A DNA stretch of 64,000 bases from an uncultured Chloroflexia bacterium (GTDB lineage: Bacteria > Chloroflexota > Limnocylindria > QHBO01): the NCBI GenBank assembly GCA_963783725.1, contig CAWAOJ010000002.1, positions 1,684,459 to 1,748,458 of the forward strand, in the 5' to 3' direction. Below the pieces are notes generated by a model. It was not told the DNA's origin. It saw nothing but the letters and a program-made list of their open reading frames with translations, and ran no database searches. This document shows, piece after piece, positions 5,912-20,558 of the stretch (within the stretch, counting starts at the first letter, position 1; every line of letters begins with the position of its first letter). The translations under genes were made by a program, and so were the position numbers.

Positions 5912-6271
5912 ATGGACCAGACGAGCCTGATCTACGTCCTCGGGTTCGGGTTCGCGGCGACGACGTTCGTCTTCGGCACGATCCTGTTCTCCTGGCTCAT
6001 CACGCACCGCCGCCAGCGGCCCCAGAAGGGCCTGCCCTACGAGTCCGGGATCGACACCATCGGCGACACCTGGTCGCGCTTCGGGCTCTCCTTCTACCTC
6101 TACGCGCTGCTGTTCGTCGCCTTCGACGTGGAGATCATCTTCGTCTACCTGTGGGCGATCGTGGTGCGGGTGGTGGCGGGACCGGGGATCGTGATGATCG
6201 GCATCTTCCTTGCGATCCTCATGTGGGGCGAGCTGTACGCGTGGAAGAAGGGGGATCTGCGATGGCGCTAG
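5912..6271 (+). CDS. nuoA: NADH-quinone oxidoreductase subunit A
   Basis: ORF 5843-6271 trimmed to ATG 5912. Three TM segments with the ND3/NuoA motifs PYESGID and FDVEIIF. The stop overlaps the nuoB start. Confidence 0.9.
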
Positions 6272-6927
6272 ACACACCCGACCGGACGCATCGCGACCCC
6301 GATTCGGTCGCTCCCGGCGCGGCGCCGCCGCGCATCGTCATTCCGGACGAGGCCGGCGACGACGAGCTCCTGCGCGAGTTCGACATGGAGGATCACCCGC
6401 GCGGCGGGTTCCACGGCCTGCTGGAGGTGATCCCCACCAAGGCCGACTACGTGCTGGACCTGATCCGGGCCAACTCGCTGTGGCCGCTGCTGTCCGGCCT
6501 GTCGTGCTGCGCCATCGAGATGATGAGCACCGCGACCAGCATGAACGACATCGACCGATTCGGGATGTTCCCCTTCCGCGCCAGCCCGCGCCAGGCGGAC
6601 GTGCTGATCGTGGCCGGCACGCTTACGACCAAGATGGCGGGGCCGCTGGTCCGGCTCTGGGAGCAGATGCCCGAGCCCAAGTGGTGCGTCGCCATGGGCA
6701 CCTGCACCACGTCCGGCGGCCGGTTCAAGCGAAGCTACAGCGTGGTGCAGGGCGTGGACCGCGTCATGCCGGTGGACGTCTACGTGCCCGGCTGCCCGCC
6801 GCGCCCGGAGGGCCTGATCTACGGGATGATGAAGCTGCAGGAGCTCGTCAAGCAGCGGCGCGGACAGTGGACCACGTACGTCGACCGCGGCCCGCAGCGC
6901 CAGGCGTGGGAAGGAGACGTTCGCTGA
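6262..6927 (+). CDS. nuoB: NADH-quinone oxidoreductase subunit B
   Basis: N2-cluster Cys motifs [15 protein letters not shown] and [11 protein letters not shown] 6262 overlaps the nuoA stop by 10 nt. Confidence 0.92.
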
Positions 6928-7550
6928 CCGCGCCGTCCATTGCGGGCGCGCTGGTTCGCGCGCTGCTCGACCGGTTTCCGGATGTCGTGACCGAGCTGTG
7001 GACCGACGAGGACACGGTCGAGGTGCAGGTGCCCCGCGACCGCATCGTCGAGACGCTCCGCTCGCTGCGTGACGAGGAGGAGTTCGCCTTCTTCTTCCTG
7101 GCCGATGCCGCGGCAGTGGACTACGGTCCGCAGAACTGGTTCGAGGTCGTCTACCACCTCTACAGCGATCGGCATCCGGCGTGGCTGCGCGTCCGCGTCC
7201 GGGTCGACCGCGCCGATCCGCACGTGCCGACCATCACCGACCTGTGGGAAGGAGCGATGTTCCACGAGCGCGAGATGTACGACATGATGGGCATCACCTT
7301 CGACGGCAACCGCGACCTGCGGCGCATCTTCATGTCGCCCGACTACCGCAGCTTCCCGCAGCGCAAGGACTTCATCCTGCCCGATGACGCCGCCGACTCG
7401 CCGGCGGCGGGCGTGAATCCGCTCGAGCGGCCGGAGACGTGGGACCTCAGCCGCTTCACCGAGCTGCCGCCGGTGGATGCGACGCACCCGGCGACGCAGA
7501 GCGGGGCGGTCGGCGGCCAGACCCTCGCCGACAAGACGAGACCGCGATGA
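6906..7550 (+). CDS. nuoC: NADH-quinone oxidoreductase subunit C
   Basis: 30-kDa subunit motifs ([30 protein letters not shown]). There is no in-frame ATG. Candidate starts are GTG 6906 or CTG 6924 (GGAG plus 7 nt). The start is uncertain. Confidence 0.85.
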
Positions 7551-8830
7551 CCGCCGCCGATCCCGACGTCCGCATCCCGGACCCGATCGAGCTCGATCGA
7601 CAGGAGGAGGAGCGCCTGCGTCGCGTGGCCGGCCTCGGCACCCAACGGCCCGCGCGCCCGGAGTTCTCCGGCTTCGAGCAGATCGGCCTGCCGGATCGGC
7701 CGCCGCAGACCGAGCGCGAGCGCCGTCTCTTCTCGCTCGAGGAGGGCGAGATGCTCGTCAACATGGGGCCGCAGCACCCGTCGACGCACGGCGTGATGCG
7801 ACTCCTGGTCAAGGTGCGCGGCGAGCTGGTGACCGACGTGGACCTCGTCCTGGGGTACCTGCATCGCGGCATCGAGAAGATCTGCGAGAACGCGACCTAC
7901 ACCACGGTGCTGACCTACGTCGATCCGATGGACTACCTGTCGGCGATGCACAACGAGCACGCGCCGGCGATCGCCTTCGAGAAGCTGTATGACGTCCGCC
8001 CGCCGAAGCGCGCCGAGTACATCCGGGCGCTGGTGGTGGAGCTGAACCGCGTCTTCAGCCACGGCCTGATGATGGGATTCCTGGCGCTCGACATGGGCGG
8101 CATCACGCCCATCCTGTACGGCTTCATCAACCGCGACGAGACCGTGGAGCTGCTGTCGAGCATCTCCGGGCAGCGCATGCTGTTCAACTTCTTCCGCGTC
8201 GGCGGCGTGAACTGGGACGTGTCGGACGAGTTCATCAGCCGCCTCTCCGCCTGGCGCGCCAACGTGGGCCGCACCATCAGCGACAACGAGCAGCTCATCA
8301 CCCAGAACGAGATCTTCGTCGGGCGGACCAAGGGCCTGGGCGTGCTGAGCGCCAAGGAAGCGATCTCGCTCGGCGTGACCGGGCCGAACCTGCGGGCGTC
8401 GGGCGTTCCGTTCGACGTCCGCAAGGCGCACCCGTACTCGATCTACAACGAGCTCGAGTTCGACGTCATCACCCAGCAGGGCGGCGACAGCTACGCCCGC
8501 TATTTGCAGCGCGTGGACGAGATCAAGCAGAGCCTGCACCTGATCGACCAGATCGTCGATCGCATGCCGCACGGTCCGGTGCAGGCCCAGGTGCCCGGCA
8601 TCATCCGCCCGCGGCCGGGCCGCGCCTATGCGGCCATCGAGAGCCCGAGGGGGCTCTACAGCGTCTACGCCATCAGCGACGGGACGGCCACGCCGTATCG
8701 GTTCCGCATGCGCGACCCGAGCTTCATCACGCTGCAGGTCATGCCGAAGCTGCTGCCCGGGCACCTCATCGCCGACACCATGGCGATCATGGCCAGCCTC
8801 GATCCGGTGATGGGCGGAGTCGACAAGTAG
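7547..8830 (+). CDS. nuoD: NADH-quinone oxidoreductase subunit D
   Basis: 49-kDa subunit motifs (NMGPQHPSTHGVMRL, RMRDPSF). ATGA overlap with nuoC. Confidence 0.92.
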   Translation: MTAADPDVRIPDPIELDRQEEERLRRVAGLGTQRPARPEFSGFEQIGLPDRPPQTERERRLFSLEEGEMLVNMGPQHPSTHGVMRLLVKVRGELVTDVDLVLGYLHRGIEKICENATYTTVLTYVDPMDYLSAMHNEHAPAIAFEKLYDVRPPKRAEYIRALVVELNRVFSHGLMMGFLALDMGGITPILYGFINRDETVELLSSISGQRMLFNFFRVGGVNWDVSDEFISRLSAWRANVGRTISDNEQLITQNEIFVGRTKGLGVLSAKEAISLGVTGPNLRASGVPFDVRKAHPYSIYNELEFDVITQQGGDSYARYLQRVDEIKQSLHLIDQIVDRMPHGPVQAQVPGIIRPRPGRAYAAIESPRGLYSVYAISDGTATPYRFRMRDPSFITLQVMPKLLPGHLIADTMAIMASLDPVMGGVDK

Positions 8831-9841
8831 ATGGACCTCTCGCTGCTGCTCGGCGTCGGCCGCTTCGTGCTGGCCACCACGCTGCTGCTGCTCGTCACCG
8901 TCCCGACCGCGTTCATCATCATCTACCTCGAGCTGAAGGTGATCGCGCTGATGCAGCTGCGCATCGGTCCCAACCGGGTCGGGCCGGCGGGCATCTTCCA
9001 GAGTGCGATCCACGGCTTCAAGGTGCTCGCCAAGGAGGACTTCACCCCGGACAACGCCGACCGGCCGGTGTTCACCATGGCGCCCTGGATGGTCTTCATG
9101 GCCGCCGCCATGAGCATGCTGGTCATTCCCTTCGCGCCGGGGCTGGTGGCGGTCGACTCGCAGATCAGCGTGGTCTACTTCTTCGCCATCATCGGCCTGT
9201 CGGTGATCGGCCTGCTCGTCGCCGGCTGGGCGAGCTACAACAAGTACTCGCTGCTCGGGGGCCTGCGCAGCGCGGCGCAGATGGTGAGCTACGAGATCCC
9301 GCTCACCCTCTCCATCGTGGGCGTGGTCGTGCTCACCGGAACGCTCAGCTTCACCAACATCATCGCCTGGCAGGCGGCGCACGGCTGGACGATCCTGTGG
9401 CAGTGGATCGGTCTGCCGGTCTTCTTCATCGCCTCCACCGCCGAGATCAACCGCACCCCCTTCGACATGGTGGAGGCGGACAGCGAGATCGTGGCGGGCT
9501 TCGCCACCGAGTACTCAGGCATGCGCTTCGGGTTCTTCTTCTTCGCCGAGTACGTCAGCCTCTTCATCATGAGCTCGATCCTGGTCACCCTCTTCTTCGG
9601 CGGGTGGCTGGCCCCCTGGCCGTTCCCGGCGCAGCTCGACGGCTTCGTGGGGACCATCTACGGCCTCGTCTGGTTCCTGGCCAAGACCTACCTCTTCGTC
9701 TTCATCTCGATCTGGGCCCGCGCCACGCTGCCTCGCGTCCGCATCGACCAGCTGATGGGGATGGCCTGGAAGGTGCTGCTTCCGCTGGCCCTCGTCAACC
9801 TGTTCATCACGGCCATCGTGGTCGTCGTCTTCAAGCTGTAG
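8831..9841 (+). CDS. nuoH: NADH-quinone oxidoreductase subunit H
   Basis: ND1 family polytopic protein (RIGPNRVGP, PFDMVEADSEIVAGFATEYSGMRF). The ATG follows directly after the nuoD stop. Confidence 0.92.
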   Translation: MDLSLLLGVGRFVLATTLLLLVTVPTAFIIIYLELKVIALMQLRIGPNRVGPAGIFQSAIHGFKVLAKEDFTPDNADRPVFTMAPWMVFMAAAMSMLVIPFAPGLVAVDSQISVVYFFAIIGLSVIGLLVAGWASYNKYSLLGGLRSAAQMVSYEIPLTLSIVGVVVLTGTLSFTNIIAWQAAHGWTILWQWIGLPVFFIASTAEINRTPFDMVEADSEIVAGFATEYSGMRFGFFFFAEYVSLFIMSSILVTLFFGGWLAPWPFPAQLDGFVGTIYGLVWFLAKTYLFVFISIWARATLPRVRIDQLMGMAWKVLLPLALVNLFITAIVVVVFKL

Positions 9842-9854
9842 GAGTCTGACCGGC

Positions 9855-10700
9855 ATGGCCGTTCCCGGGATTGGCATCGCCAAGGGCTTCGCCACCACGC
9901 TGCGCAACTTCTTCACGCCGAAGGTGACGCGGCAGTACCCCGAGGTCCGGCCCCAGATGTCGGACCGCTGGCGCGGTCGGCTGGACCTGATCTACGACCC
10001 GTTCGGATCGCACAAGTGCGAGGTCTGCTTCCAGTGCTCCATGGTCTGCCCGGTGGAGGCCATCGACATGAGCGGCTTCGACTCGCGGGGCGATCGCATC
10101 CGCTACGGGATGCCGGAGATCTACGACGAGCGCAAGGATCCGAACGCCTACCGGCGCAGCGGGCTGCCGGCGCGGCCGATGCGGAACCCTGCCCGATGGG
10201 ACGAGGCCATCGACACCGATTTCGTGAACGGGGTCATCGACGGCTTCCGTGCCCGGCCCGAGGCGCTGGTCGCGATCTTCGGGGCGGTGCAGGCGCGCTA
10301 CGGCTACCTTCCGGAGCGGGCGCTGCGCCTGATCAGCGACCGGCTCACGATCCACTGGGCGCAGGTCTTCGGCGCCGCCGGACTCGGCGGCTTCCGACTG
10401 CTGCCCGCGGAGGGCCACCTCATCACGGTCTGCGACTGCGCCGCGTGCCGCTTCGGCGGCGGACGCGAGGTGCTGCGCGCGCTGCGCGACGACCTGGGCA
10501 TCGAGCCCGGCGAGTCGACCGCCGACGGCACCTTCACCTTGCAGACCGGCAGCGACGTGGGCGCGGGCGCCATGGCGCCGGCCATCCGGGTCGATACCCT
10601 GGTCTACGGCCCGGTCACCGCGGCGCAGGCGCTGCACCTCGTCGGGCTGCGACGTGACGCGGCCGCCGAGCCCTCGGCACAGCCGGCGAGTCGGCGCTGA
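9855..10700 (+). CDS. chimeric subunit: N-terminal half of NuoI (one 4Fe-4S motif) fused to a NuoE-like thioredoxin-fold domain
   Basis: Residues 1-91 align with the NuoI/Nqo9 N-half (GFATTLRNFFTPKVTRQYPE, CEVCFQCSMVCP). The second Cys motif is absent. Residues ~115-281 look like NuoE (VQARYGYLPERAL, VCDCAAC, GIEPGESTADGTFTL). Confidence 0.8.
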   Translation: MAVPGIGIAKGFATTLRNFFTPKVTRQYPEVRPQMSDRWRGRLDLIYDPFGSHKCEVCFQCSMVCPVEAIDMSGFDSRGDRIRYGMPEIYDERKDPNAYRRSGLPARPMRNPARWDEAIDTDFVNGVIDGFRARPEALVAIFGAVQARYGYLPERALRLISDRLTIHWAQVFGAAGLGGFRLLPAEGHLITVCDCAACRFGGGREVLRALRDDLGIEPGESTADGTFTLQTGSDVGAGAMAPAIRVDTLVYGPVTAAQALHLVGLRRDAAAEPSAQPASRR

Positions 10701-10702
10701 GC

Positions 10703-12079
10703 ATGGCCGAACAGCAGAACGTCCTCTCCCCGCAGATCCGGCTGCTCGAGGGCGGGGAGCGCCGCCTGCTCACCGAGCTCGGGCGGGTCGACCCCGCTTC
10801 GATCGAGAGCTATCGCGCGGCGGGCGGCTACGCCGGCCTCGAGCGCGCCGTGTCCAAGCTCGGCCCGGAGGGCGTGATCGCCGAGATCGAGAAGGCAGGG
10901 CTCCGTGGGCGCGGCGGCGCCGGCTACCCGACGGCCGACAAGTGGCGCGCCGCGCGCGAGCAGCCGGCCGAGCGCAGGGTCGTGGTGGCGAACCTGATGG
11001 GCGCCGATCCGACCGCTCTCGGCGACCGGGCGCTGGCCGAAGGAAACCCGCACCTGGTGCTCGAGGGGCTTCTGATCGCCGCATTCGCGACCGGTGCCAG
11101 CGAGGCGTACATCGCCGTTCGGCGCGATTGGACCGTGGCGCTCGAGCGGCTGCAGTCCGCGGTCGCGGAGGCGGAGCGCGCCCGCTTCGCCGGCTACCTG
11201 GTGCTCGGAACGGACTTCAGCGTGCAGGTCGTCGTGCGCGAGGGTTCGGGCGCCATGGTGGCGGGCGAGGAGACGGCGCTGCTGGCCGCCCTGGTCGGCG
11301 ATCGCGGTATGCCCGTCATCCGCCCGCCGTACCCGTCACAGCGCGGGATGCGCGGAGATCCGACGGTGGTGCAGAACGCGGAGACCCTGGCGCACGCGGC
11401 ATGGATCATGTCGCACTCGGCGGAGGCCTTCTCGTCGGTCGGCTCCGAGCGGAGCAGGGGCACCAAGCTGGTGACGATCTTCGGGCGCGTCGCCGAGCCC
11501 GGCGTGCTCGAGGTCCCGCTCGGCATGCCGCTGATCGACATCCTGGCGGCCGCGGGCGGCGGGACCGATACGACCAAGGCGCTCTTCCTCGGCGGCGCCG
11601 GCGGCGGCGCCGTCGATGCGGCGAGCCTCAACACGGCGTACGACTACGAGCCGCTGGCCGAGCGGGGCGTGGCGATGGGGCTGGGGTCGATCCTGGTCAC
11701 CGACCGCTCGACGTGCATGGTGGACACCGCGCGCTTCTTCCTCGATCACTCGGCGCGCGAGGCGTGCGGGAAGGCGGTTCCGTGCCGCATCGGCACCCGC
11801 CGTCTCGTCGAGGCGCTCGACCGCGTGCTCGCCGCGACGCCTCGGCCGAACGACTTCACCCTGCTGCGCGAGCTGTCGCGCAAGATGCGCGACACGGCGC
11901 TCTGCCATCTCGAGGCCCGTGCGCCCGCGCCGATGCTCACCACGCTCGCCCTGTTCCCCGAGGAGTACCGCGCCCACGCCGAGCGCGGCGTGTGCCTGGC
12001 CGGCTCGTGCGACGCGCCCGCGGTGGCGCCACTCCTCTCGCCACTCGCCGACATCGACGCGGGTACGATAGCGACATGA
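10703..12079 (+). CDS. NuoF-like subunit (divergent flavoprotein subunit)
   Basis: GLRGRGGAGYPTADKW, GEETALL, PPYPSQRG..GDPTVVQNAETL and EACGKAVPCRIG are colinear with NuoF/Nqo1, but several cofactor motifs are altered (see findings). Confidence 0.8.
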   Translation: MAEQQNVLSPQIRLLEGGERRLLTELGRVDPASIESYRAAGGYAGLERAVSKLGPEGVIAEIEKAGLRGRGGAGYPTADKWRAAREQPAERRVVVANLMGADPTALGDRALAEGNPHLVLEGLLIAAFATGASEAYIAVRRDWTVALERLQSAVAEAERARFAGYLVLGTDFSVQVVVREGSGAMVAGEETALLAALVGDRGMPVIRPPYPSQRGMRGDPTVVQNAETLAHAAWIMSHSAEAFSSVGSERSRGTKLVTIFGRVAEPGVLEVPLGMPLIDILAAAGGGTDTTKALFLGGAGGGAVDAASLNTAYDYEPLAERGVAMGLGSILVTDRSTCMVDTARFFLDHSAREACGKAVPCRIGTRRLVEALDRVLAATPRPNDFTLLRELSRKMRDTALCHLEARAPAPMLTTLALFPEEYRAHAERGVCLAGSCDAPAVAPLLSPLADIDAGTIAT

Positions 12080-14460
12080 CCTTCGGAACCGGCAACGGCG
12101 ACGGCACCGGCAACGGCCACGCGACCGGCAGCCTCACCGACTACACCCCCGTCTGGCCGATGGTGCCCGGCACGCGCAAGCTCTCGGTCACCGTCAACGG
12201 CCAGCGCGTCGAGGCCGAAGAGGGCCAGACGATCCTGCAGGCCTGCCGGGTGCTCGGGATCGAGGTGCCGACGCTCTGCTACGAGCCGAAGCTGGCGCCC
12301 TTCGGGGCGTGCCGCATCTGCGTCGTCGAGGTCGAGGGCCGCGAGGACACTCCCATCTCGTGCGGAACGACGATCGAGGAGGGGATGGTCATCACCACCC
12401 ACTCCGAGCGCCTGGTCGAGAACCGGCGCATGGTCCTGGAGCTGATCTTCAGCGACCACGACGCGTACTGCCTGCCGCCCTGCCAGTTCAAGTGCCCGAC
12501 CAGGGTCGACATCCCCGGCTACCTCAAGCAGAACACGCTGGGCAACTGGGAAGAGGCGACGCGGATCCTGAAGCGGTCGCTCCCGTTCCCGGCCATCCTC
12601 GGCCGCGTCTGCCCGGCGCCGTGCGAGACGCACTGCCGTCGCGAAGAGGTCGACACCGCCATCGCCATCCGCGACTCGCATCGGTACTGCGCCGACCGGG
12701 TGCTGGAGGTGGATGCGCCCGCGCCCATCCCGTGGCCCAAGGACCCGCCCACCGGGAAGCGCGTGGCCGTCATCGGTGCGGGCCCGGCGGGCCTGGCCAA
12801 CGCGTACTACATGCAGCTGCGCGGGCACGAGTGCGACGTCTTCGAAGCCGAGCCGGAGCAGGGCGGCATGCTGCGCTACGGCATCCCGCAGTACCGGCTG
12901 CCGAAGGGCTGGATGGATCGCGAGCTCAACCACGTCTGGGAGCTGGGCGCGCGGCTCAGGCCGAACATGCGCCTCGGCCGTGACTTCCACCTCGCCGACC
13001 TGCTGCCCGAGTACGACGCGATCTACATCAGCATCGGCTGCTACCAGTCCAACGTGCTGGGCATTCCCGGCGAGGACGCCGACGGGATGGTGAACGCGCT
13101 GGAGAACCTGTACAACTCGACCCGCGGGGTGAGCGTCCCCAAGCTGCGCGACGCGCGCGTGGTCGTCATCGGCGGCGGGTTCACTGCCATCGACTGCACG
13201 CGGACCAGCATCCGGCAGGGGGCGCGCGAGGTGACGCTGGTCTACCGCCGGGACCTGAAGGACATGCCCGCCCAGGACGAGGTGCACGAGGCGATCGAGG
13301 AGGGGGCGCGGGTCATCTTCCAGGCGGCGCCGACCAGGATCGTCACCGACGAGAACAACCGCGTCACGGGCGTGGAGTTCCAGCGCATGAAGCTCGGCGA
13401 GCCCGACGAGAAGGGGCGGCGCCGGCCGGAGCCGATGCCCGGCACCGAGTTCGTGGTCGAATGCGACACGGTGCTCGGCGCCATCGGCCAGGGGCCCGAC
13501 CTGCACTGGATCGAGTCGGAGCCGGACGAGATCCGCTCCGCGCTCGAGGTGAGCCGGCGCGGGACCCTGGTCAGCGAGGAGAACATCTTCCGCACCAACG
13601 TGCCGAAGGTCTTCGTCTCGGGCGACGTGCGCACCGGCTCGGCCACCGTGGTCGAGGCCATCGGCGAGGGCCGTCGCGCCTCGTACGCCATGGACTACTG
13701 GCTGCGCGGGCACGACCTCGACGACCCGCAGGTGCGGCGCATCGTCTCCGAGCCGCAGCCCAGCTTCCTCACCATCGTGCCGTTCACCGACGACGTGAAG
13801 GAGCCGCGCGCGGTCATGGGCAAGGCCGGCTCGGACGAGCGACGCGACAACTTCGTCGAGTACGAGTACGGCTACACCCACGACCAGGCGATGGCCGAGG
13901 CGAGCCGCTGCCTGCAGTGCACCTGCGAGGCGATCGGCCACTGCGACCTGCGCGAGGCGGCCATCGAGTACGAGACGACGCTCAACATGGCGATCGACGA
14001 GCGCTCGATCCAGGACAACCCGTACGTCGGCTACAACCACGGCTATGGCCGCGACGAGACGCACTCGTTCATCCTGCGCGACTACTCGCGCTGCATCGAC
14101 TGCGGCCGGTGCGCCACCGTCTGCAAGGAGATCGTCGGCTCCGGCTGCTACGACTTCATCGGCAAGGGGATGGACTCGCTGGTCACCACGGCCGACTTCG
14201 TGTCGCTCAACGAGACGCCGTGCGTCTCGTGCGGAAGGTGTGCCGAGACGTGCCCGGTCGGGGCGCTGATGCCGCGGCCGCGCACGCTGGAGACCTACCA
14301 GCTCGACGTGAGCCGCTGCATCTTCTGCGGCATGTGCGCCGACGCGTGCCCGTACGACGCGCTGCGCTGCGGACCCGAGTTCGAGTTCAGCGAGTACCAG
14401 CGCGACCTGCCGATGCTCGACATCCTGGAGATGTCCGACCGGGAGCGACCGACCCGCTGA
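12076..14460 (+). CDS. chimeric subunit: NuoG-type 2Fe-2S domain + GltD-like FAD/NAD(P)H oxidoreductase + 2x[4Fe-4S] + C-terminal half of NuoI
   Basis: The start is ATG 12076, in an ATGA overlap with the NuoF-like stop. The upstream part of the long ORF 10654-14460 is shadow frame over nuoF. Domains in order:
- 2Fe-2S region: LSVTVNGQ...CRICVVEV.
- GltD Fe-S region: CLPPCQFKCP...GRVCPAPCETHC.
- Dinucleotide fold: KRVAVIGAGPAGL.
- Ferredoxin motifs: CIDCGRCATVC and CVSCGRCAETCP.
- NuoI C-half: RCIFCGMCADACP...PEFEFSEYQRDL. Confidence 0.8.
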   Translation: MTFGTGNGDGTGNGHATGSLTDYTPVWPMVPGTRKLSVTVNGQRVEAEEGQTILQACRVLGIEVPTLCYEPKLAPFGACRICVVEVEGREDTPISCGTTIEEGMVITTHSERLVENRRMVLELIFSDHDAYCLPPCQFKCPTRVDIPGYLKQNTLGNWEEATRILKRSLPFPAILGRVCPAPCETHCRREEVDTAIAIRDSHRYCADRVLEVDAPAPIPWPKDPPTGKRVAVIGAGPAGLANAYYMQLRGHECDVFEAEPEQGGMLRYGIPQYRLPKGWMDRELNHVWELGARLRPNMRLGRDFHLADLLPEYDAIYISIGCYQSNVLGIPGEDADGMVNALENLYNSTRGVSVPKLRDARVVVIGGGFTAIDCTRTSIRQGAREVTLVYRRDLKDMPAQDEVHEAIEEGARVIFQAAPTRIVTDENNRVTGVEFQRMKLGEPDEKGRRRPEPMPGTEFVVECDTVLGAIGQGPDLHWIESEPDEIRSALEVSRRGTLVSEENIFRTNVPKVFVSGDVRTGSATVVEAIGEGRRASYAMDYWLRGHDLDDPQVRRIVSEPQPSFLTIVPFTDDVKEPRAVMGKAGSDERRDNFVEYEYGYTHDQAMAEASRCLQCTCEAIGHCDLREAAIEYETTLNMAIDERSIQDNPYVGYNHGYGRDETHSFILRDYSRCIDCGRCATVCKEIVGSGCYDFIGKGMDSLVTTADFVSLNETPCVSCGRCAETCPVGALMPRPRTLETYQLDVSRCIFCGMCADACPYDALRCGPEFEFSEYQRDLPMLDILEMSDRERPTR

Positions 14461-14503: not shown

Positions 14504-15889
14504 ATGAGCGTTCACACCATCGTCAGCTCGCAGCGACTCGATCGGCCCCTCGACGAGGTCTTCGCGTTCTTCGCCACACCGGAGAACCTGAGCCGCCTGA
14601 CGCCCGACGGCCTCGGCTTCGAGCTCCGCTCGGACGACACCGAGATGCGCACGGGCCTCGTCATCGAGTACCGCATCAGGCCGCTGCTCGGGATCGGCCT
14701 GGGATGGACCAGCCGCATCAGCCGCTACGTGCCGGGCTCGGAGTTCGAGGACGTCCAGCTGCGCGGGCCGTACCGCAGCTGGCGCCATCGCCATCGGTTC
14801 AGCGCGGAGGACGGCGGGACGCGGGTTGACGACGAGGTCTCGTACGAGCTGCCGTTCGGCGTGCTGGGCGACCTGGTCGAGCGCTTCCTGGTGCGACCGC
14901 GGCTGCAGCAGATCTTCGGCTACCGCGGCGCGATGATGGATCGCCTTCTCTCAGCCCGCAGCCAGACGGAACGACCGATGACGGTCGCGGTGGCCGGAGG
15001 CTCCGGCTTCGTCGGCGGCGAGATCGCGACCGAGCTCCATCGGCGCGGCAATAGGGTGATCGTCCTCAGCCACGACCCCGACTCGCCCGCCGACGACCTG
15101 CCCGCGGGGATCGAGGTGCGCCACGTGGACGTGACCTCCGGCGCCGGGCTGCCCGAGGCGCTGGAGGGCGTGGAGGCCCTGGTCATCGCGCTGGCCTTCC
15201 CGAACCTGCCGATGGAGGATCCGCGGCGCGGCCGGACGTTCGAAGCGGTGGACGCCGCGGGCACCGAGCGTCTCGCCGCGGCGGCGCGCACCGCAGGCGT
15301 GCAGCGCCTCGCCTACATCTCCGGCGCGGGCGCCGCTCCCGACGCCGAGCGGCACTGGTTCCGCGCCAAGTGGCGCGCGGAGGAGGCGATCCGCGCGTCG
15401 GCGATCCCCTACACCATCGTTCGTCCGACGTGGATCTTCGGCCCGCGCGACGTCGCGCTCAACCGGTTCCTGGGCTTCGCGCGCACCCTGCCCTTCGTCC
15501 CGCTGACGAACTTCGGCGGCCAGCGTCTCGCCCCTGTGTTCGTCGGCGACGTGGCCGCGCTCGTGGCGGACTCGCTGGTCGATCCGGCCGCCCGCGACGC
15601 GATCTTCGAGATCGGCGGCCCGGAGACGATGACAATGCGCGACATCGTGCGCCGCACGCTCAGGGTCGCTGGACTGCGGCGACCGCTGCTTCCCGTCCCG
15701 CCGCAGCTGGTCAAGGTCGCCGCCTTCTTCCTGCAGTACCTGCCCGGGCGCCTCCTGACGCCGGAGGCGGTCGACTTCGTGAACCAGCCGGCCGTGGTGG
15801 ACACCGCGCCCCTCCTCGCGCGCATGCCCCGCCGCCTCACGCCGCTCGAGGAGGGACTGGCCACCTACCTGCTGCCGCGCCGGGGCTGA
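14504..15889 (+). CDS. SRPBCC (START/COQ10-like) domain fused to NDUFA9-like atypical SDR
   Basis: The N-terminal ~150 aa is SRPBCC-like (RPLDEVFAFFATPENLSRLTP...GPYRSWRHRHRF). The remainder is an NAD(P)-binding Rossmann fold (VAGGSGFVGGEIA, IVRPTWIFGPRD, PVFVGDVA) of the NDUFA9/NmrA-like type. Confidence 0.7.
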   Translation: MSVHTIVSSQRLDRPLDEVFAFFATPENLSRLTPDGLGFELRSDDTEMRTGLVIEYRIRPLLGIGLGWTSRISRYVPGSEFEDVQLRGPYRSWRHRHRFSAEDGGTRVDDEVSYELPFGVLGDLVERFLVRPRLQQIFGYRGAMMDRLLSARSQTERPMTVAVAGGSGFVGGEIATELHRRGNRVIVLSHDPDSPADDLPAGIEVRHVDVTSGAGLPEALEGVEALVIALAFPNLPMEDPRRGRTFEAVDAAGTERLAAAARTAGVQRLAYISGAGAAPDAERHWFRAKWRAEEAIRASAIPYTIVRPTWIFGPRDVALNRFLGFARTLPFVPLTNFGGQRLAPVFVGDVAALVADSLVDPAARDAIFEIGGPETMTMRDIVRRTLRVAGLRRPLLPVPPQLVKVAAFFLQYLPGRLLTPEAVDFVNQPAVVDTAPLLARMPRRLTPLEEGLATYLLPRRG

Positions 15890-15931: not shown

Positions 15932-16531
15932 GTGCGGAGTGGGTACGCTAGAATCGGGCGGGCCGCTTGCGTCACAGCGAGCCGGCTTCTGTCTGCTCGA
16001 AACTCCAGCGGGAGCTTCATTCTGGATATCACCGGCATCCTGTTCGTTGTGCTCGCCGTCGGCGTGGTGGGCGGTGGCCTCGCGGTGGTCACGCTGCACA
16101 ACGTCATCCATTCCGCCATCGCCATGATGGTCTGCTTCGGCTCCCTGGCCGGGATGTACGCGCTCCTCGGCGCACCCATCGTGGCGGCGGCCCAGGTGCT
16201 CATCTACCTCGGCGCAATCAGCGTCCTGATCATCTTCGCCATCATGCTCACCCAGGCCGGCGACGCGACCCTTCCCGCGCCGTTCCATCGCCAGGGGCCG
16301 GTGGCGGCCGCAATGGCGCTGCTGATCGTGGTGCTGGTCGGATGGGCGGTGCTGCAGACCGATTGGAGCCACGCCGCGACGGCCGTATCGGTCAACCTGC
16401 AGCGGCTCGCCGCGGCCCTCTTCACCGACTACGCGCTGCCGTTCGAGCTGATCAGCCTCCTGCTGCTGGCGGCGATCATCGGCGCGATCTACCTCGCGCG
16501 ACGCCCCGAAGAGGACGAGCGGGCGCGCTGA
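15932..16531 (+). CDS. nuoJ: NADH-quinone oxidoreductase subunit J
   Basis: ND6 family (VIHSAIAMMVCF...AAAQVLIYLGAISVLIIFAIML). The longest ORF starts at GTG 15932. The conserved part begins near residue 30, where CTG 16022 follows GGAG by 7 nt. The start is uncertain. Confidence 0.85.
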   Translation: MRSGYARIGRAACVTASRLLSARNSSGSFILDITGILFVVLAVGVVGGGLAVVTLHNVIHSAIAMMVCFGSLAGMYALLGAPIVAAAQVLIYLGAISVLIIFAIMLTQAGDATLPAPFHRQGPVAAAMALLIVVLVGWAVLQTDWSHAATAVSVNLQRLAAALFTDYALPFELISLLLLAAIIGAIYLARRPEEDERAR

Positions 16532-16836
16532 TGGGACTCGCCGGATACCTCATCGTCTCCTTGCTGCTGTTCGCCATCGGCGCGTTCGGCTTCCTGGCCC
16601 GACGGAACGCGATCCTGATGCTGATCTGCATCGAGCTGATGCTCAACGGAGTCAACCTGAGCCTGGTCGCCTTCAACGCGTACATGCCCGGCGGCGCGGT
16701 GAACGGCGCGATCTTCGCGCTGATGATCATGGCCGTGGCCGCGGCCGAGGCGACCGTCGGCCTCGCCCTGGTGATCGCCATCATCCGCACCCGTCAGACC
16801 GCCGAGGTCGACGAATACCACGACCTGAAGGAGTAG
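16531..16836 (+). CDS. nuoK: NADH-quinone oxidoreductase subunit K
   Basis: 101-aa ND4L family protein (ICIELMLNGVNL, AAAEATVGLALV). The ATG overlaps the nuoJ stop (TGATG). Confidence 0.92.
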   Translation: MGLAGYLIVSLLLFAIGAFGFLARRNAILMLICIELMLNGVNLSLVAFNAYMPGGAVNGAIFALMIMAVAAAEATVGLALVIAIIRTRQTAEVDEYHDLKE

Positions 16837-16839
16837 GCC

Positions 16840-19034
16840 GTGGACCTGCTGATCGTCCTCATCCCGGCGCTGCCGATCGTCGGATTCCTGTTCACGGTGG
16901 TCGTCGGCCGCCGGCTCGACCGCGTCCCGGTGCACGGCCACGCCGTCGACTCGCATGACCACCCGGGTGACGCTCAGGCGGCCGATGCGAGCGCGCACGA
17001 GCACGGTGACGACACCGGGTTCCGGGCCGTGCCGACCGAGGCGGAGCAGGCAGCGACCTCACCGCACGCCGGTCACGCCGACGACCTGGCCAACGCCCAG
17101 GGCGCCGACGGCGTCATACCGGCCGACCTGAACGACGGCATCGGCCAGTCGGGGCACGTCGTACCCGGCGGACCGCGGCCGCGCTACCTGAGCTGGATCG
17201 TCCCCACCGGCCTGGTCGCCATCGCCTGGGTGCTCAGCATGGTGGTGTTCGTCAACGTCATCTTCGGCGGCAACACCTACCACGTGACGGTCTACGAGTG
17301 GATCGCCGCCGGCGACTTCCACATCAACATCGCGTTCTACGTGGACGCGCTGACGGCCATGCTGCTGCTGGTCGTGAGCAGCGTGGGACTGCTGGTCCAC
17401 GTCTACTCCATCGGCTACATGGATGGCGACCGCGGGCTGTGGCGCTTCTTCGCCTACCTGAACCTTTTCATGTTCAGCATGCTGCTGCTGGTCATGGGCG
17501 ACAACTACCTGATGCTCTTCGTCGGGTGGGAGGCGGTCGGACTGTGCAGCTACCTCCTGATCGGGTTCTGGTACAAGAAGCCGTCCGCCGCGGGCGCGGC
17601 CAAGAAGGCGTTCGTGGTGAACCGCATCGGCGACGTCGGCTTCGGCCTGGGGATCATGATGATCTGGGTCCTGCTGGGAACCCTGAGCTTCACCGATGTC
17701 TTCGACAAGGTCGGCGGGCTGGACCAGACCCAGGTCACGATCATCGCCCTTCTCCTCTTCGCCGGCGCGGTCGGCAAGAGCGCGCAGTTCCCGCTGCACG
17801 TCTGGCTGCCCGACGCGATGGAGGGCCCGACGCCGGTCAGCGCCCTGATCCACGCCGCGACCATGGTCAACGCCGGCGTCTACATGGTCGCCCGCTCGAA
17901 CCCGATCTTCTCCCAGGCGCCGGTCGCGATGTGGGTCGTGGCGGGGATCGGCATCTTCACCGCCATCTTCGCCGCGGCCATCGCGCTGACCCAGAACGAC
18001 ATCAAGAAGGTGCTTGCCTACTCGACGGTCAGCCAGCTCGCGTACATGTTCACCGCGCTGGGCATCGGCGCGTGGGCGGCCGCGATCTTCCACCTCGTCA
18101 GCCACGGCTTCTTCAAGGGGCTGCTCTTCATGGGCTCCGGCTCCGTGATCCACGGGGCGGGCGGCGAGCAGGACATGCGATTCCTGGGCGGCATGCGCCA
18201 GAAGATGCGCTGGACCTACTGGATCATGGTCGTCGGGTCGCTCTCCCTGGCCGGCGTGCCGATCCTTTCGGGCTTCTTCAGCAAGGACGAGATCCTGGGC
18301 GAGGCGTTCAACCGCGGCTACCCGATCTTCTACCTGGTCGGCACCGTCGTCGCCTTCATGACGGCCTTCTACAGCTTCCGCATGATCTACATGACCTTCC
18401 ACGGTGAGTGGCGCGGGCCGCAGGAGGCGTGGCGGCACGTGCACGAATCGGTGCCGACCATGGTCGCGCCCATCGCCATCCTCGCCATTCCGACCGTGCT
18501 GGTCGGGCTGCTGCTGGGGCTGCCGCCGGAGGGGGGCGTCATCCACAGCTGGCTCGGGCGCGTGTTCGAGCATGCCGAGGAGGCGGGCATCCAGCCGGGG
18601 TCGCTCGCCGCCGCCGGGCACCACTTCGAGTTCGTGGGCGTCGGCGGGCTGCTGCTTCTGGTCGGCGCCACGGTGGCCGTCCTCGGCGTGCTGCTCGCCT
18701 ACCGCTGGTACGTCACCGACCCGCAGGCGTCGGCACGATTCGTGGACAGCATCCCGCTCGGCCTCGGCCCGGGCATGTACCGCGCCAGCCTCAACCGCTA
18801 CTACGTCGACGACCTCTACCAGCTCATCTTCGCGCGCGGCGGCGTGATCGTGGGCGAAGCGCTGTGGTGGTTCGACGCCAAGATCATCGACGGCGCGGTG
18901 AACGGTGCGGGCTGGCTGGCACGAAACATGGGCTCCGGCTTGCGCCGGTCACAGACCGGACGCGTCGAGAACTACGGGCTCGGCATGGCGGCGGGGCTGG
19001 TGCTCGTGCTGGTGGCGTACCTGGTGTGGCACTG

Positions 19035-19035
<1 letters not shown>
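16840..19035 (+). CDS. nuoL: NADH-quinone oxidoreductase subunit L
   Basis: ND5 family (WEAVGLCSYLLIGFW, KSAQFPLHVWLPDAMEGPTPVSALIHAATMV) with a C-terminal extension region and a GTG start. It carries a ~90-aa His/Asp-rich insertion after TM1. Confidence 0.92.

Positions 19036-20558
<1,523 letters not shown>

What the first reader, a model, noticed from the sequence alone, without database searches (positions are those of the whole stretch)
9855..14460. nuoI is split in two, and its halves bracket a nested NuoE/F/G-like electron-input cassette
What the sequence shows:
- ORF 9855-10700 begins as a normal NuoI/Nqo9: GFATTLRNFFTPKVTRQYPE, one CxxCxxCxxxCP motif (CEVCFQCSMVCP), then ...RIRYGMPEIYDE.
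- It stops being NuoI at ~10127, exactly where the second cluster motif should follow.
- The missing half is the last ~59 aa of ORF 12076-14460 (14281-14457), 4.15 kb downstream. It reads TYQLDVSRCIFCGMCADACPYDALRCGPEFEFSEYQRDL, which compares with the RCIFCGLCEEACP...DFE..EY. region of Thermus Nqo9 and E. coli NuoI.
- Between the halves lie a NuoE-like domain (fused to the N-half), a NuoF-like gene, and a 2Fe-2S/GltD-like/2x4Fe-4S protein (fused to the C-half).
- The remaining gene order is the 11-subunit type, A-B-C-D-H-I-J-K-L-M-N.

Established knowledge: in 2x[4Fe-4S] ferredoxin folds, each cluster takes three Cys from one motif and the fourth from the other. Clusters N6a and N6b would therefore have to be assembled across two polypeptides.

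Inference: an input module was inserted into nuoI, which physically tethers it to the connecting-wire subunit. I do not know of a described complex I with this layout.
Basis: partly seen in the sequence, partly recalled or inferred. Interest (0 to 1): 0.85.

Follow-up and report, generated by a model that had tools for sequence, protein, structure and literature searches.

The report
Split NuoI clamps NADPH module to complex I
In this Chloroflexota (Candidatus Limnocylindria) genome and hundreds of relatives, the complex I wire subunit NuoI is encoded as two halves, each fused to a subunit of a Stn/Nfn-type NAD(P)H dehydrogenase cassette lying between them, which implies a respiratory complex I with an undescribed, covalently stitched-in electron-input module.

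Summary
ORF 9855-10700 carries the N-terminal half of NuoI, with one CxxCxxCxxxCP motif, fused to a NuoE-like domain. The last 59 residues of ORF 12076-14460 carry the C-terminal half. The two pieces hit complementary, non-overlapping parts of the NuoI profile. Spliced in silico, they align end to end with solved NuoI/TYKY chains, with all 8 Cys in register.

It is not an assembly artefact. The same layout occurs in every related locus with enough sequence (56 of 56). It is present in about 500 species-level genomes, mostly Candidatus Limnocylindria. It also occurs in deep clades only 30-37% identical. All Cys are invariant, and the C-half has the lowest dN/dS in the operon (0.08).

The nested cassette is closest to the StnABC/NfnABC (Bfu-family) transhydrogenases, not to NuoEFG. 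NuoI's second half replaces StnC's dead-end FdhF-like domain.

In this clade the NuoE/NuoF-like sites are remodelled: two NuoE Cys and one N3 Cys are lost, and the BfuB cluster domains are absent. The GltD-like FAD/NADPH site is intact.

The best reading is a proton-pumping NAD(P)H:menaquinone oxidoreductase, probably NADPH-linked, whose N6a/N6b clusters are built across two polypeptides. I found no description of this in the searchable literature.

The parts
5912..6271 (+). nuoA
   Evidence: NCBIfam NuoA hits. The start is taken from the in-frame ATG at 5912 and from gene calls in relatives.
6262..6927 (+). nuoB, with all four cluster N2 Cys ligands
   Evidence: TIGR01957 scores 223 bits against a cut-off of 143. 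The CC, GTC and GCPP motifs are seen in the translation.
6906..7550 (+). nuoC (start approximate)
   Evidence: TIGR01961 hit in the C-terminal part of ORF 6210-7550. Candidate GTG starts lie at 6867 and 6906.
7547..8830 (+). nuoD
   Evidence: NF004739 scores 421 bits against a cut-off of 360. The ATG at 7547 overlaps the nuoC stop.
8831..9841 (+). nuoH
   Evidence: NF004741 scores 336 bits against a cut-off of 305.
9855..10124 (+). P1 residues 1-90: the N-terminal half of NuoI. It has an amphipathic N-terminal helix and the first motif, C55-x2-C58-x2-C61-x3-C65-P66 (nt 10017-10052).
   Evidence: TIGR01971 profile positions 1-66 of 121. It aligns to M. smegmatis NuoI 8e9g_I residues 9-89. The Cys are invariant in 77 sequences. 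dN/dS is 0.21.
10125..10229 (+). P1 residues 91-125: conserved linker between the NuoI half and the NuoE-like domain
   Evidence: 84% column conservation. dN/dS is 0.18. AF2 predicts no fold for it.
10230..10700 (+). P1 residues 126-281: NuoE/BfuC-like thioredoxin-fold domain lacking two of the four [2Fe-2S] Cys
   Evidence: PF01257, E=9e-24. The best PDB matches are 9bov_C, NfnC 9n5u_C and StnA 8oh5_A. The second Cys pair is replaced by D/E-V-G/A-A-G across the clade but kept in distant clades. AF2 pLDDT is 85-97.
10703..12079 (+). P2: NuoF/BfuB-core-like protein (458 aa) with a remodelled FMN/NADH loop and a 3-Cys N3/B1 site. It lacks the N-terminal 2Fe-2S and C-terminal 2x[4Fe-4S] domains of BfuB.
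   Evidence: TIGR01959 scores 319 bits against a cut-off of 559. It aligns to StnB residues 104-524 only. The clade consistently has ANLMGADPT in place of CNADEGDPG, and CGKAVPC in place of CGKCxxC. dN/dS is 0.30.
12076..14280 (+). P3 residues 1-735: StnC/NfnA-like subunit. It comprises a [2Fe-2S] domain (residues 34-110), a GltD-like domain with two [4Fe-4S] clusters plus FAD and NADPH sites (residues about 133-560), the motif C612-x2-C-x-C-x5-C, and a HydA/NuoG-type 2x[4Fe-4S] domain (motif A at 673-683, motif B at 716-726).
   Evidence: Pfam and NCBIfam hits. Residues 36-755 align to 9bov_A residues 4-699 (E=2e-169) and to StnC 8oh5_C residues 3-700. All Cys, both Rossmann GxGxxG/GGGxxA motifs and Y390-R391-R392 are invariant. 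The protein is 85-93% identical across species.
14281..14460 (+). P3 residues 736-794: the C-terminal half of NuoI (motif C748-x2-C751-x2-C754-x3-C758-P759 plus GPEFEFSEY and the tail)
   Evidence: TIGR01971 profile positions 71-112 of 121, 52 bits when scanned alone. It aligns to Nqo9 2fug_9 residues 73-126 and to 8e9g_I residues 84-127. It is nearly invariant in more than 45 species. Its dN/dS of 0.083 is the lowest in the operon.
14504..15889 (+). Extra ORF: an SRPBCC/START-like domain fused to an NDUFA9-like SDR. Whether it belongs to the complex is uncertain.
   Evidence: PF03364 at residues 13-128 and PF13460 at residues 165-311. The best PDB hits are complex I 39-kDa/NDUFA9 subunits, 9g83_P at 4e-24. 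It is absent from the related loci.
15932..16531 (+). nuoJ
   Evidence: PF00499, E=2e-35.
16531..16836 (+). nuoK
   Evidence: NF004320 scores 104 bits against a cut-off of 57. The start is the ATG at 16531.
16840..19035 (+). nuoL
   Evidence: NF005141 scores 714 bits against a cut-off of 556.
19035..20558 (+). nuoM (assigned by position and frame; not scanned separately)
   Evidence: The in-frame ATG at 19035 overlaps the nuoL stop, and the translated N-terminus is hydrophobic and membrane-like. Relatives have a Proton_antipo_M gene between nuoL and nuoN.
20566..22029 (+). nuoN
   Evidence: TIGR01770 scores 433 bits against a cut-off of 333.

Best explanation
This is a complex I operon of the 11-subunit type. 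Its connecting ferredoxin subunit, NuoI, is encoded as two halves that flank a three-gene electron-input cassette derived from the Stn/NfnABC (Bfu) family.

**How the pieces join**
- Each half carries one CxxCxxCxxxCP motif. The N-half is fused to the NuoE/BfuC-like subunit (P1). The C-half is fused to the end of the StnC/NfnA-like subunit (P3).
- In a 2x[4Fe-4S] ferredoxin fold, each cluster takes three Cys from one motif and one from the other. N6a and N6b must therefore be assembled across P1 and P3. That assembly clamps the input module onto the Q-module.

**Proposed electron path (inferred from homology)**
1. NAD(P)H, most likely NADPH, donates a hydride to the FAD of the GltD-like domain of P3.
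2. Electrons pass through the two GltD [4Fe-4S] clusters and the HydA/NuoG-like clusters of P3.
3. They leave through the A/B ferredoxin domain. This is the branch that ends blindly in the FdhF-like remnant of StnC.
4. They enter the split N6a/N6b pair, then reach N2 in NuoB and then menaquinone.
5. NuoL/M/N pump protons.

**The NuoE-like domain and P2 in this clade**
They have lost Bfu-defining cofactor sites but stay under purifying selection. I take them to be mainly a scaffold, closing a P1-P2-P3 ring, or a remodelled side branch.

**Shown versus inferred**
- Shown: the sequence anatomy, its conservation and the homologies.
- Inferred: the physical assembly, the donor specificity and the direction of electron flow.
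For: **NuoI halves**
- The two halves hit complementary parts of the NuoI profile, and the tail is NuoI-specific.
- The spliced product aligns continuously to solved NuoI/TYKY chains, with 8 of 8 Cys aligned.
- There are exactly four ferredoxin motifs: one in P1 and three in P3. No other lies in the 64 kb window.
- No intact NuoI-like HSP was found in 1.33 Mb of window sequence plus related operon flanks; the one HSP spanning both motifs (L086) falls on motifs B and C of that locus's BfuA::PorB protein.

**Motif C is an orphan**
- Motifs A and B of P3 are homologous to the complete 2x[4Fe-4S] domain of StnC/HydA/NuoG (PF22117 at residues 666-731). That leaves motif C without a partner in P3.

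**Conservation**
- The layout is present in 56 of 56 loci with enough room downstream.
- It gave 518 confirmed stretches in a one-genome-per-species collection.
- It also occurs in deep clades only 30-37% identical to P1: L085, L087, L088 and L089.
- All motif Cys are invariant. dN/dS is 0.083 for the C-half and 0.21 for the N-half, against 0.29 for nuoD and nuoH.

**Identity of the cassette**
- The best solved relatives are StnABC 8oh5, 9bov and NfnABC 9n5u.
- The Stn electron path and its dead-end C1/C2 branch are described in PMC10482914.

**Donor site and Q-module**
- The GltD FAD and NADPH motifs, including YRR as in NADPH-binding StnC, are invariant.
- The Q- and P-module subunits pass their curated cut-offs, and the N2 ligands are present.
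Against: - There is no structural or biochemical evidence that the two halves associate. The P3 model was unusable in the Fe-S region, with pLDDT below 50 for residues 592-794.
- Neither half reaches the NuoI cut-off alone, and the spliced product falls just short (106 bits against 113).
- phmmer can also align P3 motifs B+C onto a whole NuoI dicluster region.
- P2 and the NuoE-like domain are as constrained as nuoD and nuoH. Their altered loops are themselves conserved. They may still bind cofactors and oxidise NADH.
- The rest of the 2.24 Mb genome could not be searched for an intact nuoI or nuoEFG.
- NADPH specificity rests only on homology.
Confidence: 0.75

Rival explanations
1. The split-NuoI anatomy is the same, but the module works as a full Bfu-type machine or a dual-input machine. 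NADH is oxidised at an FMN in P2, as in normal complex I. Alternatively, NADH/ferredoxin and NADPH chemistry are coupled (confurcation or transhydrogenation) on the way to quinone, and the GltD site is an NADP(H) outlet rather than the sole inlet.
For: - The relatives in L089 and L086 keep a complete BfuB (N-terminal 2Fe-2S domain, NuoF core, C-terminal 2x4Fe-4S) and all four NuoE Cys. L088 keeps canonical FMN-loop and N3 motifs in a fused NuoE-NuoF-GltD protein.
- In the window clade, P2 keeps the GRGGxGxPT and GEETAL motifs. Its altered loops are conserved, and dN/dS is 0.30.
- Schut et al. predict Nuo-Bfu complexes driven by NADH plus reduced ferredoxin (PMC9304861).
Against: - In the window clade, the minimal bifurcation site defined for NfnABC (FMN + B1 + C1; PMC11829005) is not intact. 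C1 has 2 of 4 Cys and B1 has 3 of 4.
- The BfuB N- and C-terminal cluster domains are absent.
- The NADE(G/S)(D/E)PG loop is replaced by NLMGADPT.
Confidence: 0.2
2. The two halves do not pair. P3 motifs B and C form a complete NuoI-like dicluster domain in cis, or motif C binds nothing. The P1 motif is then a vestige or a lone cluster site.
For: phmmer aligns P3 residues around motifs B+C to the E. coli NuoI dicluster region, 7awt_I residues 56-128. The B-to-C spacing of about 30 aa is ferredoxin-like.
Against: - A+B align as a unit to the solved StnC/9bov_A ferredoxin domain and to PF22117. B is therefore already paired.
- B+C scores about half of the spliced product on NuoI models (49-56 bits against 106-108 bits).
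- The NuoI-specific N-terminal region exists only in P1.
- The P1 Cys are invariant in 77 sequences and under purifying selection.
- The 1+3 motif count recurs in every clade and in L086.
Confidence: 0.04
3. The cassette encodes a separate soluble Stn-like enzyme, or the operon is decaying. A normal NuoI encoded elsewhere completes this complex I, or a second operon does the work.
For: Only 64 kb of a 2.24 Mb contig could be inspected. In many relatives the operon is interrupted between P3 and nuoJ by unrelated minus-strand genes.
Against: - The NuoI halves are fused in frame to cassette subunits and are the most constrained parts of the cassette.
- No intact nuoI lies within +-10 kb in any of the loci.
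- The layout is conserved across deep clades and about 500 species.
- StnC's own C-terminal domain, which Stn needs for assembly (PMC10482914), is missing here.
Confidence: 0.04
4. Assembly artefact or frameshift.
For: None beyond the a priori possibility in metagenome-derived sequence.
Against: - The architecture is identical in many independent assemblies, with a span from the start of the N-half to the end of the C-half of 4476-5046 nt.
- Complete genes with coupled start and stop codons lie between the halves.
Confidence: 0.01

Closest known systems
NuoI / Nqo9 / TYKY (NDUFS8), the 2x[4Fe-4S] connecting subunit of complex I
   Same: - The N-terminal region, both CxxCxxCxxxCP motifs and the C-terminal GP(E/N)FE segment are all present. 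They align in register when the two pieces are joined.
- The position in the operon is between nuoH and nuoJ.
   Different: - It is encoded as two polypeptide segments 4.15 kb apart, each fused to another redox subunit.
- Neither piece reaches the family cut-off alone.
StnABC (Sporomusa ovata, PDB 8oh5) and NfnABC (PDB 9n5u, 9bov-type): Nfn-type members of the BfuABC family
   Same: - The subunit trio is the same: NuoE-like, NuoF-like, and HydA/NuoG-like with an inserted GltD FAD/NADPH domain.
- P3 aligns to StnC residues 3-700, and P2 to StnB residues 104-524.
- The YRR NADPH motif is present.
   Different: - StnC's FdhF-like C-terminal domain is replaced by the NuoI C-half.
- The NuoE-like subunit carries the NuoI N-half.
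- The window clade lacks the BfuB N- and C-terminal cluster domains, two BfuC Cys and one B1 Cys.
- The cassette is embedded in a membrane complex I operon, whereas Stn is a soluble tetramer.
Predicted Nuo-Bfu, Mbh-Bfu and Por-Bfu complexes (Schut et al. 2022, PMC9304861)
   Same: - The concept is the same: a Bfu-type module replaces NuoEFG on a proton-pumping complex.
[quoted passage not shown]
- L086 looks like a Por-Bfu.
   Different: - Nuo-Bfu is described from Deferribacteres, Proteobacteria, Planctomycetes and Nitrospirae as a 14-subunit (A-N) complex whose BfuABC module replaces NuoEFG.
- The words 'split', 'fused' and 'NuoI' do not occur in the paper's main text.
- P2 lacks the ferredoxin-type domain (IPR017896) that the paper required of BfuB homologues, so this clade would probably not have been picked up (my inference from the domain list).
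11-subunit complex I without an N-module (Moparthi and Hagerhall 2011, PMC3144371)
   Same: The backbone gene order is A-B-C-D-H-I-J-K-L-M-N, and the paper lists this type in Chloroflexi.
   Different: Here a dedicated flavoprotein input module is present and is covalently joined through NuoI.
Mbx-like operons of Thermotoga and proteobacteria, in which NuoI is replaced by a gltD-related flavoprotein (Degli Esposti 2015, PMC4758237)
   Same: A GltD-type NAD(P)H flavoprotein sits at the NuoI position of a complex-I-like operon.
   Different: That case is described as a substitution in an Mbx-like complex. It is not a split NuoI with a nested Stn-like cassette on a bona fide Nuo.

Membership tests
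NuoI (TIGR01971 / NF004536) | One polypeptide reaching the curated family score | tested here: not met
   The P1 piece scores 51 bits and the P3 tail 52 bits, against a cut-off of 113. The in-silico spliced product scores 106 bits as a single hit covering profile positions 1-112 of 121.
NuoI (TIGR01971 / NF004536) | Two CxxCxxCxxxCP motifs (eight Cys) in NuoI register, plus the NuoI-specific N-terminal and C-terminal segments | tested here: met
   The feature is met only by the two pieces together. The alignment to 7ar7_I and 2fug_9 is continuous, with all eight Cys aligned. The tail scores far better as NuoI than as a generic ferredoxin.
NuoI (TIGR01971 / NF004536) | Gene position between nuoH and nuoJ | tested here: met
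   The halves start directly after nuoH. They end before nuoJ in the window and in relatives.
NuoI (TIGR01971 / NF004536) | Binds clusters N6a and N6b and sits between the NuoG-side chain and N2 | not testable with these tools
   This needs a structure or EPR.
BfuABC electron-bifurcating family (Schut 2022; Li 2025) | BfuC [2Fe-2S] cluster C1 with four Cys | tested here: not met
   The second Cys pair is replaced across the window clade. It is kept in L084 and L087, and L086 keeps all four NuoE Cys.
BfuABC electron-bifurcating family (Schut 2022; Li 2025) | BfuB with FMN site, B1 [4Fe-4S] (four Cys), an N-terminal [2Fe-2S] domain and a C-terminal 2x[4Fe-4S] domain | tested here: not met
   P2 covers only StnB residues 104-524. 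It has no Fer4 or 2Fe-2S Pfam hits. Its B1 motif is CGKAVPC, and the NADE-type loop is replaced. The L089 homologue does have all the domains.
BfuABC electron-bifurcating family (Schut 2022; Li 2025) | BfuA (HydA/NuoG-like Fe-S subunit) carrying the third-substrate site, here the Nfn-type GltD FAD/NADPH domain | tested here: met
   P3 residues 36-755 align to 9bov_A, StnC and NfnA. The Fer2_4, Fer4_20, Pyr_redox_2 and Fer4_Nqo3 domains are all present.
Stn/NfnABC transhydrogenase | FdhF-like C-terminal domain of StnC with clusters C1 and C2, required for tetramer assembly | tested here: not met
   P3 ends at residue 794. Its alignment to StnC stops at about residue 700 of 1172. The role of that domain is described in PMC10482914.
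Stn/NfnABC transhydrogenase | NADPH-dependent reduction of NAD+ and ferredoxin | not testable with these tools
   This is an enzyme activity. Only the NADPH-site motifs could be checked.
Nuo-Bfu (predicted, Schut 2022) | BfuABC module takes the place of the canonical NADH module NuoEFG in a 14-subunit (A-N) nuo cluster | tested here: not met
   Here the cassette lies between nuoH and nuoJ, inside nuoI. The paper's description is; that NuoEFG normally sits between nuoD and nuoH is general knowledge.
Complex I, 11-subunit backbone | nuoA,B,C,D,H,(I),J,K,L,M,N present, with the Q- and P-module subunits passing curated cut-offs | tested here: met
   NuoB, D, H, K, L and N score above their cut-offs. 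NuoJ is identified by Pfam. NuoM is assigned by position and frame only. The N2 ligands are present.

The most novel reading that the evidence does not exclude
This would be a natural heterodimeric split of a 2x[4Fe-4S] ferredoxin domain. Clusters N6a and N6b of complex I would each be ligated by cysteines from two different polypeptides. The split would act as a covalent docking plug that wires a Stn/Nfn-derived NADPH-oxidising flavoprotein module directly into the quinone module.

The result would be a proton-pumping NADPH:menaquinone oxidoreductase. It would probably be a main complex I of Candidatus Limnocylindria, a class known here only from metagenome-assembled genomes, several of them from soil samples. 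The same plug would be reused on pyruvate:ferredoxin oxidoreductase (L086).
Probability: 0.55. Interest if true: 0.88.

Novelty: new variant of a known kind. Interest (0 to 1): 0.78.

Why it matters
**For complex I research**
- Complex I research treats the 14 core subunits, and NuoI in particular, as invariant single polypeptides. A version conserved across hundreds of species, in which the N6a/N6b domain is assembled from two chains, would be a new structural solution for attaching an input module.
- The usual NADH module would be replaced by an Nfn/Stn-type flavoprotein.

**For Stn and the evolution of input modules**
- The branch of the StnC cluster chain described as a non-functional remnant would gain a role. 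Here it would be the exit to the quinone module.
- The deep clades form a graded series, from a complete BfuABC (L089) to the reduced module in the window clade. That series makes the evolution of complex I input modules directly testable.

**For physiology and protein evolution**
- It predicts a proton-pumping NADPH:quinone oxidoreductase; I know of no experimentally established enzyme of that kind (my own knowledge, not searched). This bears on the redox balance and energetics of a Chloroflexota class known here only from metagenome-assembled genomes.
- A naturally split ferredoxin is also of interest for protein evolution, given the half-ferredoxin duplication hypothesis, and for engineering modular electron wires.

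Tried and rejected
**Structure prediction**
- The AF2 model of P3, built on a 40-sequence alignment, had mean pLDDT 56 and below 50 for residues 592-794. It could not be used to decide motif pairing, and no fold search was run on it.
- The AF2 model of P1 showed a confident NuoE-like domain but pLDDT below 50 for residues 22-113. That is compatible with a half-domain needing a partner, but it is weak evidence, because AF2 models no clusters and the alignment was shallow.

**Searches that failed or gave nothing**
- A genome scan with the diverse alignment A2 failed because no conserved stretch was available. It succeeded with the N-half alignment A3.
- I tried to name the organisms of the deep clades (L084/L089, L087, L088) through cluster look-ups. 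No organism names came back. Only the 279-aa clade could be named, as Limnocylindrales/Anaerolineae.
- Ten full-text literature searches found no description of a split NuoI or of this layout.
- Other X::NuoE fusions from the representative search turned out to be unrelated (response regulator, acetyltransferase and others).

**Explanations rejected**
- Cis pairing of P3 motifs B and C was considered and rejected (see rival explanations).
- Misassembly or a pseudogene was considered and rejected on conservation and dN/dS.

**Not possible**
- Searching the rest of this genome, or the complete relatives, for an intact nuoI or nuoEFG.

Full report
**1. What is in the window**

The region is about 70% G+C. 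It carries a plus-strand nuo operon:

| Gene | Coordinates |
|---|---|
| nuoA | 5912-6271 |
| nuoB | 6262-6927 |
| nuoC | about 6906-7550 |
| nuoD | 7547-8830 |
| nuoH | 8831-9841 |
| P1 | 9855-10700 |
| P2 | 10703-12079 |
| P3 | 12076-14460 |
| extra ORF | 14504-15889 |
| nuoJ | 15932-16531 |
| nuoK | 16531-16836 |
| nuoL | 16840-19035 |
| nuoM | 19035-20558 |
| nuoN | 20566-22029 |

NuoB, D, H, K, L and N score above their curated NCBIfam cut-offs. NuoB keeps the four Cys of cluster N2. There is no separate nuoI gene.

**2.

- P1 (281 aa) matches the NuoI model TIGR01971 with residues 11-77, at profile positions 1-66 of 121. It matches NuoE models with residues about 127-262.
- P3 (794 aa) matches TIGR01971 with residues 736-777, at profile positions 71-112 of 121. 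The two hits are complementary and do not overlap.
- Scanned alone, the last 62 residues of P3 score 52 bits on NuoI. The next kind of family, generic ferredoxins, reaches at most 26 bits.
- A six-frame motif scan finds only four CxxCxxCxxxC motifs in 64 kb: one in P1 and three in P3.
- When P1(1-88) and P3(740-794) are joined in silico, TIGR01971 gives one continuous hit covering profile positions 1-112 of 121, at 106 bits against a cut-off of 113.
- phmmer against the PDB aligns residues 8-131 of the joined sequence continuously to TYKY/NuoI chains. Examples are 7ar7_I (E=1e-24), E. coli 7awt_I, M. smegmatis 8e9g_I and Thermus Nqo9 2fug_9 residues 6-126. All eight Cys are in register.
- The junction falls in the hairpin between the two motifs.

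**3. It is not an artefact**

- A search of 5.8 billion proteins with P1 returned more than 120 full-length homologues at 75-83% identity. Where named, they are Candidatus Limnocylindria or Chloroflexota.
- A scan of a one-genome-per-species collection with the N-half found 518 confirmed stretches.
- The best 80 are nearly all titled Limnocylindria, Chloroflexota or 'uncultured Chloroflexia'. They include Mb-scale contigs and a complete chromosome, OY969424.1.
- tblastn over 88 loci shows the order nuoA-B-(C)-D-H-P1-P2-P3-(gap)-nuoJ-K-L-(M)-N throughout.
- Every one of the 56 loci with at least 4.7 kb downstream of the N-half also has the C-half. The span from the start of the N-half to the end of the C-half is 4476-5046 nt.
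- No NuoI-like HSP occurs elsewhere in the 1.33 Mb searched; the only one spanning both motifs lies on motifs B and C of L086's BfuA::PorB protein.

**4. Selection**

All four Cys of the P1 motif are invariant in 77 sequences. All twelve Cys of the three P3 motifs are invariant in 53. The P3 tail, TYQLDVSRCIFCG(I/M)CADACPYDALRCGPEFEFSEYQRDLPMLDILEMSDRERPTR, is almost identical in more than 45 species.

Median pairwise dN/dS against the window:

| Region | dN/dS |
|---|---|
| P3 C-half | 0.083 |
| P3 A/B domain | 0.095 |
| GltD-like domain | 0.15 |
| P1 linker | 0.18 |
| P1 N-half | 0.21 |
| nuoD and nuoH | 0.29 |
| P2 | 0.30 |
| NuoE-like domain | 0.31 |

dS may be underestimated at this G+C content, so I rely only on the ranking.

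**5. Deep clades**

A representative-level search and context look-ups found fusions only 28-37% identical to P1 with the same anatomy.

- **L085.** Order nuoD-H-[I_N::E]-F-[861-aa Fer2/GltD/Fer4x3 ending in CILCGICVDACPYDALRNGPEFELS]-nuoJ. This is the 279-aa clade, named Limnocylindrales/Anaerolineae.
- **L087.** Order nuoABCDH-[I_N::E]-F-[799 aa].
- **L088** (49% G+C). Order nuoH-[I_N::E]-[NuoE-NuoF-GltD fusion, 1048 aa]-[HoxU-like, 265 aa, with three motifs, the last followed by a NuoI-like end (CPHDALETGSDYELA)]-nuoJKLMN.
- **L089.** A contiguous 14-gene operon, nuoABCDH-[I_N::NuoE]-[complete BfuB, 636 aa]-[824 aa with NuoI C-half]-nuoJKLMN. The NuoE part passes the NuoE cut-off. The NuoI half-hits cover profile positions 2-66 and 73-117.

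The split is therefore old. The window clade is a reduced derivative.

**6. What the cassette is**

- The best solved relatives of all three proteins come from the same entries: 9bov/9bp5, StnABC 8oh5/8oh9 and NfnABC 9n5u.
- P3 residues 36-755 align to 9bov_A residues 4-699 (E=2e-169) and to StnC residues 3-700.
- P3 is thus a HydA/NuoG-like Fe-S subunit with a GltD FAD/NADPH domain inserted, as described for StnC (PMC10482914).
- Where StnC continues into its FdhF-like domain, P3 has the NuoI C-half.
- In Stn the electron path is FAD-C7-C6-C5-C4-C3-B1-FMN. The C1/C2 branch toward the FdhF-like domain is called a non-functional remnant. In P3 that branch would be the productive exit to N6a/N6b. 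This is my inference.
- P3 motifs A and B match PF22117 (Fer4_Nqo3) and the StnC dicluster domain. They are therefore paired with each other. Motif C is an orphan, whose only available partner is the single motif in P1.

**7. Remodelled sites in the window clade**

Across more than 60 Limnocylindria sequences:

- the NuoE-like domain lacks the second Cys pair;
- P2 has CGKAVPC, so the second Cys of the N3/B1 site is Ala;
- P2 has ANL(M/I)GADPT in place of CNADEGDPG.

L086 and L088 keep both canonical P2 motifs, L084 and L086 keep all four NuoE Cys, and L087 is intermediate. P2 covers only StnB residues 104-524 and has no additional cluster domains.

The minimal bifurcation site defined for NfnABC is FMN + B1 + C1 (PMC11829005). 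It is not intact here, so I do not file this module as a bifurcating Bfu enzyme.

These regions are nevertheless constrained. A scaffold role and altered cofactor chemistry both remain open.

In contrast, the GltD-like FAD and NADPH Rossmann motifs, and the YRR motif shared with NADPH-binding StnC, are invariant.

**8. Mechanism proposed**

Each step is inferred from homology.

1. NAD(P)H, probably NADPH, reduces the FAD in P3.
2. Electrons pass through the P3 Fe-S chain to the A/B domain.
3. They enter N6a/N6b, shared between the P3 tail and the P1 N-half.
4. They reach N2 in NuoB and then menaquinone at NuoD/NuoH.
5. Reduction of the quinone drives proton pumping.

The module would be held twice. 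One hold is the shared clusters. The other is the NuoE-NuoF-NuoG-type contacts P1-P2-P3.

**9. Literature**

- Ten full-text searches found no paper describing a split NuoI or this layout.
- Schut et al. 2022 (PMC9304861) predict three related complexes. [quoted passage not shown] Mbh-Bfu in Dehalococcoides has the Bfu genes in the middle of the cluster and an extra flavin subunit. Por-Bfu occurs in Chloroflexi.
- The words 'split', 'fused' and 'NuoI' do not occur in that paper's main text.
- Degli Esposti 2015 notes Mbx-like operons in which NuoI is replaced by a gltD-like flavoprotein.
- Luecker et al. 2013 describe a Nitrospina/Kuenenia complex I with NuoG2/NuoF2 subunits that carry extra Fe-S clusters and apparently lack an FMN-binding site.
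- The present layout is best classed as a new variant of these known kinds.

**10. Limits**

- There is no structural model of the assembled halves.
- The rest of the genome was not searched.
- No expression data were examined.
- Donor specificity is inferred.
- The taxonomy of three deep clades is unknown.

Noticed in passing
window 14504-15889 (+): An ORF between P3 and nuoJ encodes an SRPBCC/START-like (polyketide cyclase) domain fused to an SDR. The SDR's best solved relatives are all complex I 39-kDa/NDUFA9 subunits (9g83_P 4e-24, 6x89_A9 3e-21). It was not found in the related loci, where the P3-nuoJ gap holds other genes, so it may be a lineage-specific accessory subunit.
   Followed up: partly
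L086 8412-15933: The same cassette sits in a pyruvate:ferredoxin oxidoreductase context: porG-porD-porA-[single-motif half-ferredoxin::NuoE]-[complete BfuB]-[GltD-like]-[motifs A, B and orphan C fused to PorB]. The motif count is again 1+3 over two polypeptides. It looks like the predicted Por-Bfu of Schut et al. 2022, and it suggests that the split ferredoxin is a reusable docking plug.
   Followed up: partly
L088 1321-6023: A low-G+C (49%) variant. The GltD domain is fused to a NuoE-NuoF protein (1048 aa). The NuoI C-half is carried by a small HoxU-like protein (265 aa) with no GltD insertion.
   Followed up: partly
L089 10001-15165: A deep clade with a complete BfuB (N-terminal 2Fe-2S domain, NuoF core, C-terminal 2x4Fe-4S) and a NuoE-like part that passes the NuoE cut-off, nested in nuoI of a contiguous 14-gene operon. 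It is a candidate fully functional Nuo-Nfn-Bfu. Its organism is unknown.
   Followed up: partly
L004 14600-17980; L016 14650-18840: In many relatives, 0.05-4.6 kb separate P3 from nuoJ. In these two loci the gap holds long minus-strand ORFs, so the operon is probably split into two transcription units there.
   Followed up: partly
L011 and L012: Two contigs of the same MAG (SMAG_U2040) each carry nuoH-P1-P2(-P3). This is either a duplicated operon or strain heterogeneity in the bin.
   Followed up: no
L005, L035, L042, L044: Several loci with typical Limnocylindria-like operons are titled Steroidobacteraceae or Binatia MAGs. This is probably mis-binning.
   Followed up: no
window 61751-62116 (-): Rfam finds a full-length tmRNA (146 bits), but ARAGORN reports no tRNA or tmRNA in the window.
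   Followed up: no
window 22034-23605 (+) and 649-2454 (+): A GT20 trehalose-phosphate-synthase-like gene follows nuoN directly. Upstream lies an AAA/PTPase/R3H protein, and that protein, followed by thymidylate kinase, DinB_2 and CdAMP_rec genes, lies upstream of nuoA in the relatives L001 and L003.
   Followed up: no
P3 residues 202 and 146 (window about 12679 and 12511): StnC K170, the unusual Lys ligand of cluster C7 that is strictly conserved in StnC, aligns with an invariant His202 in P3. StnC C114 aligns with Ile146. The cluster next to the FAD may therefore have a different ligand set.
   Followed up: no
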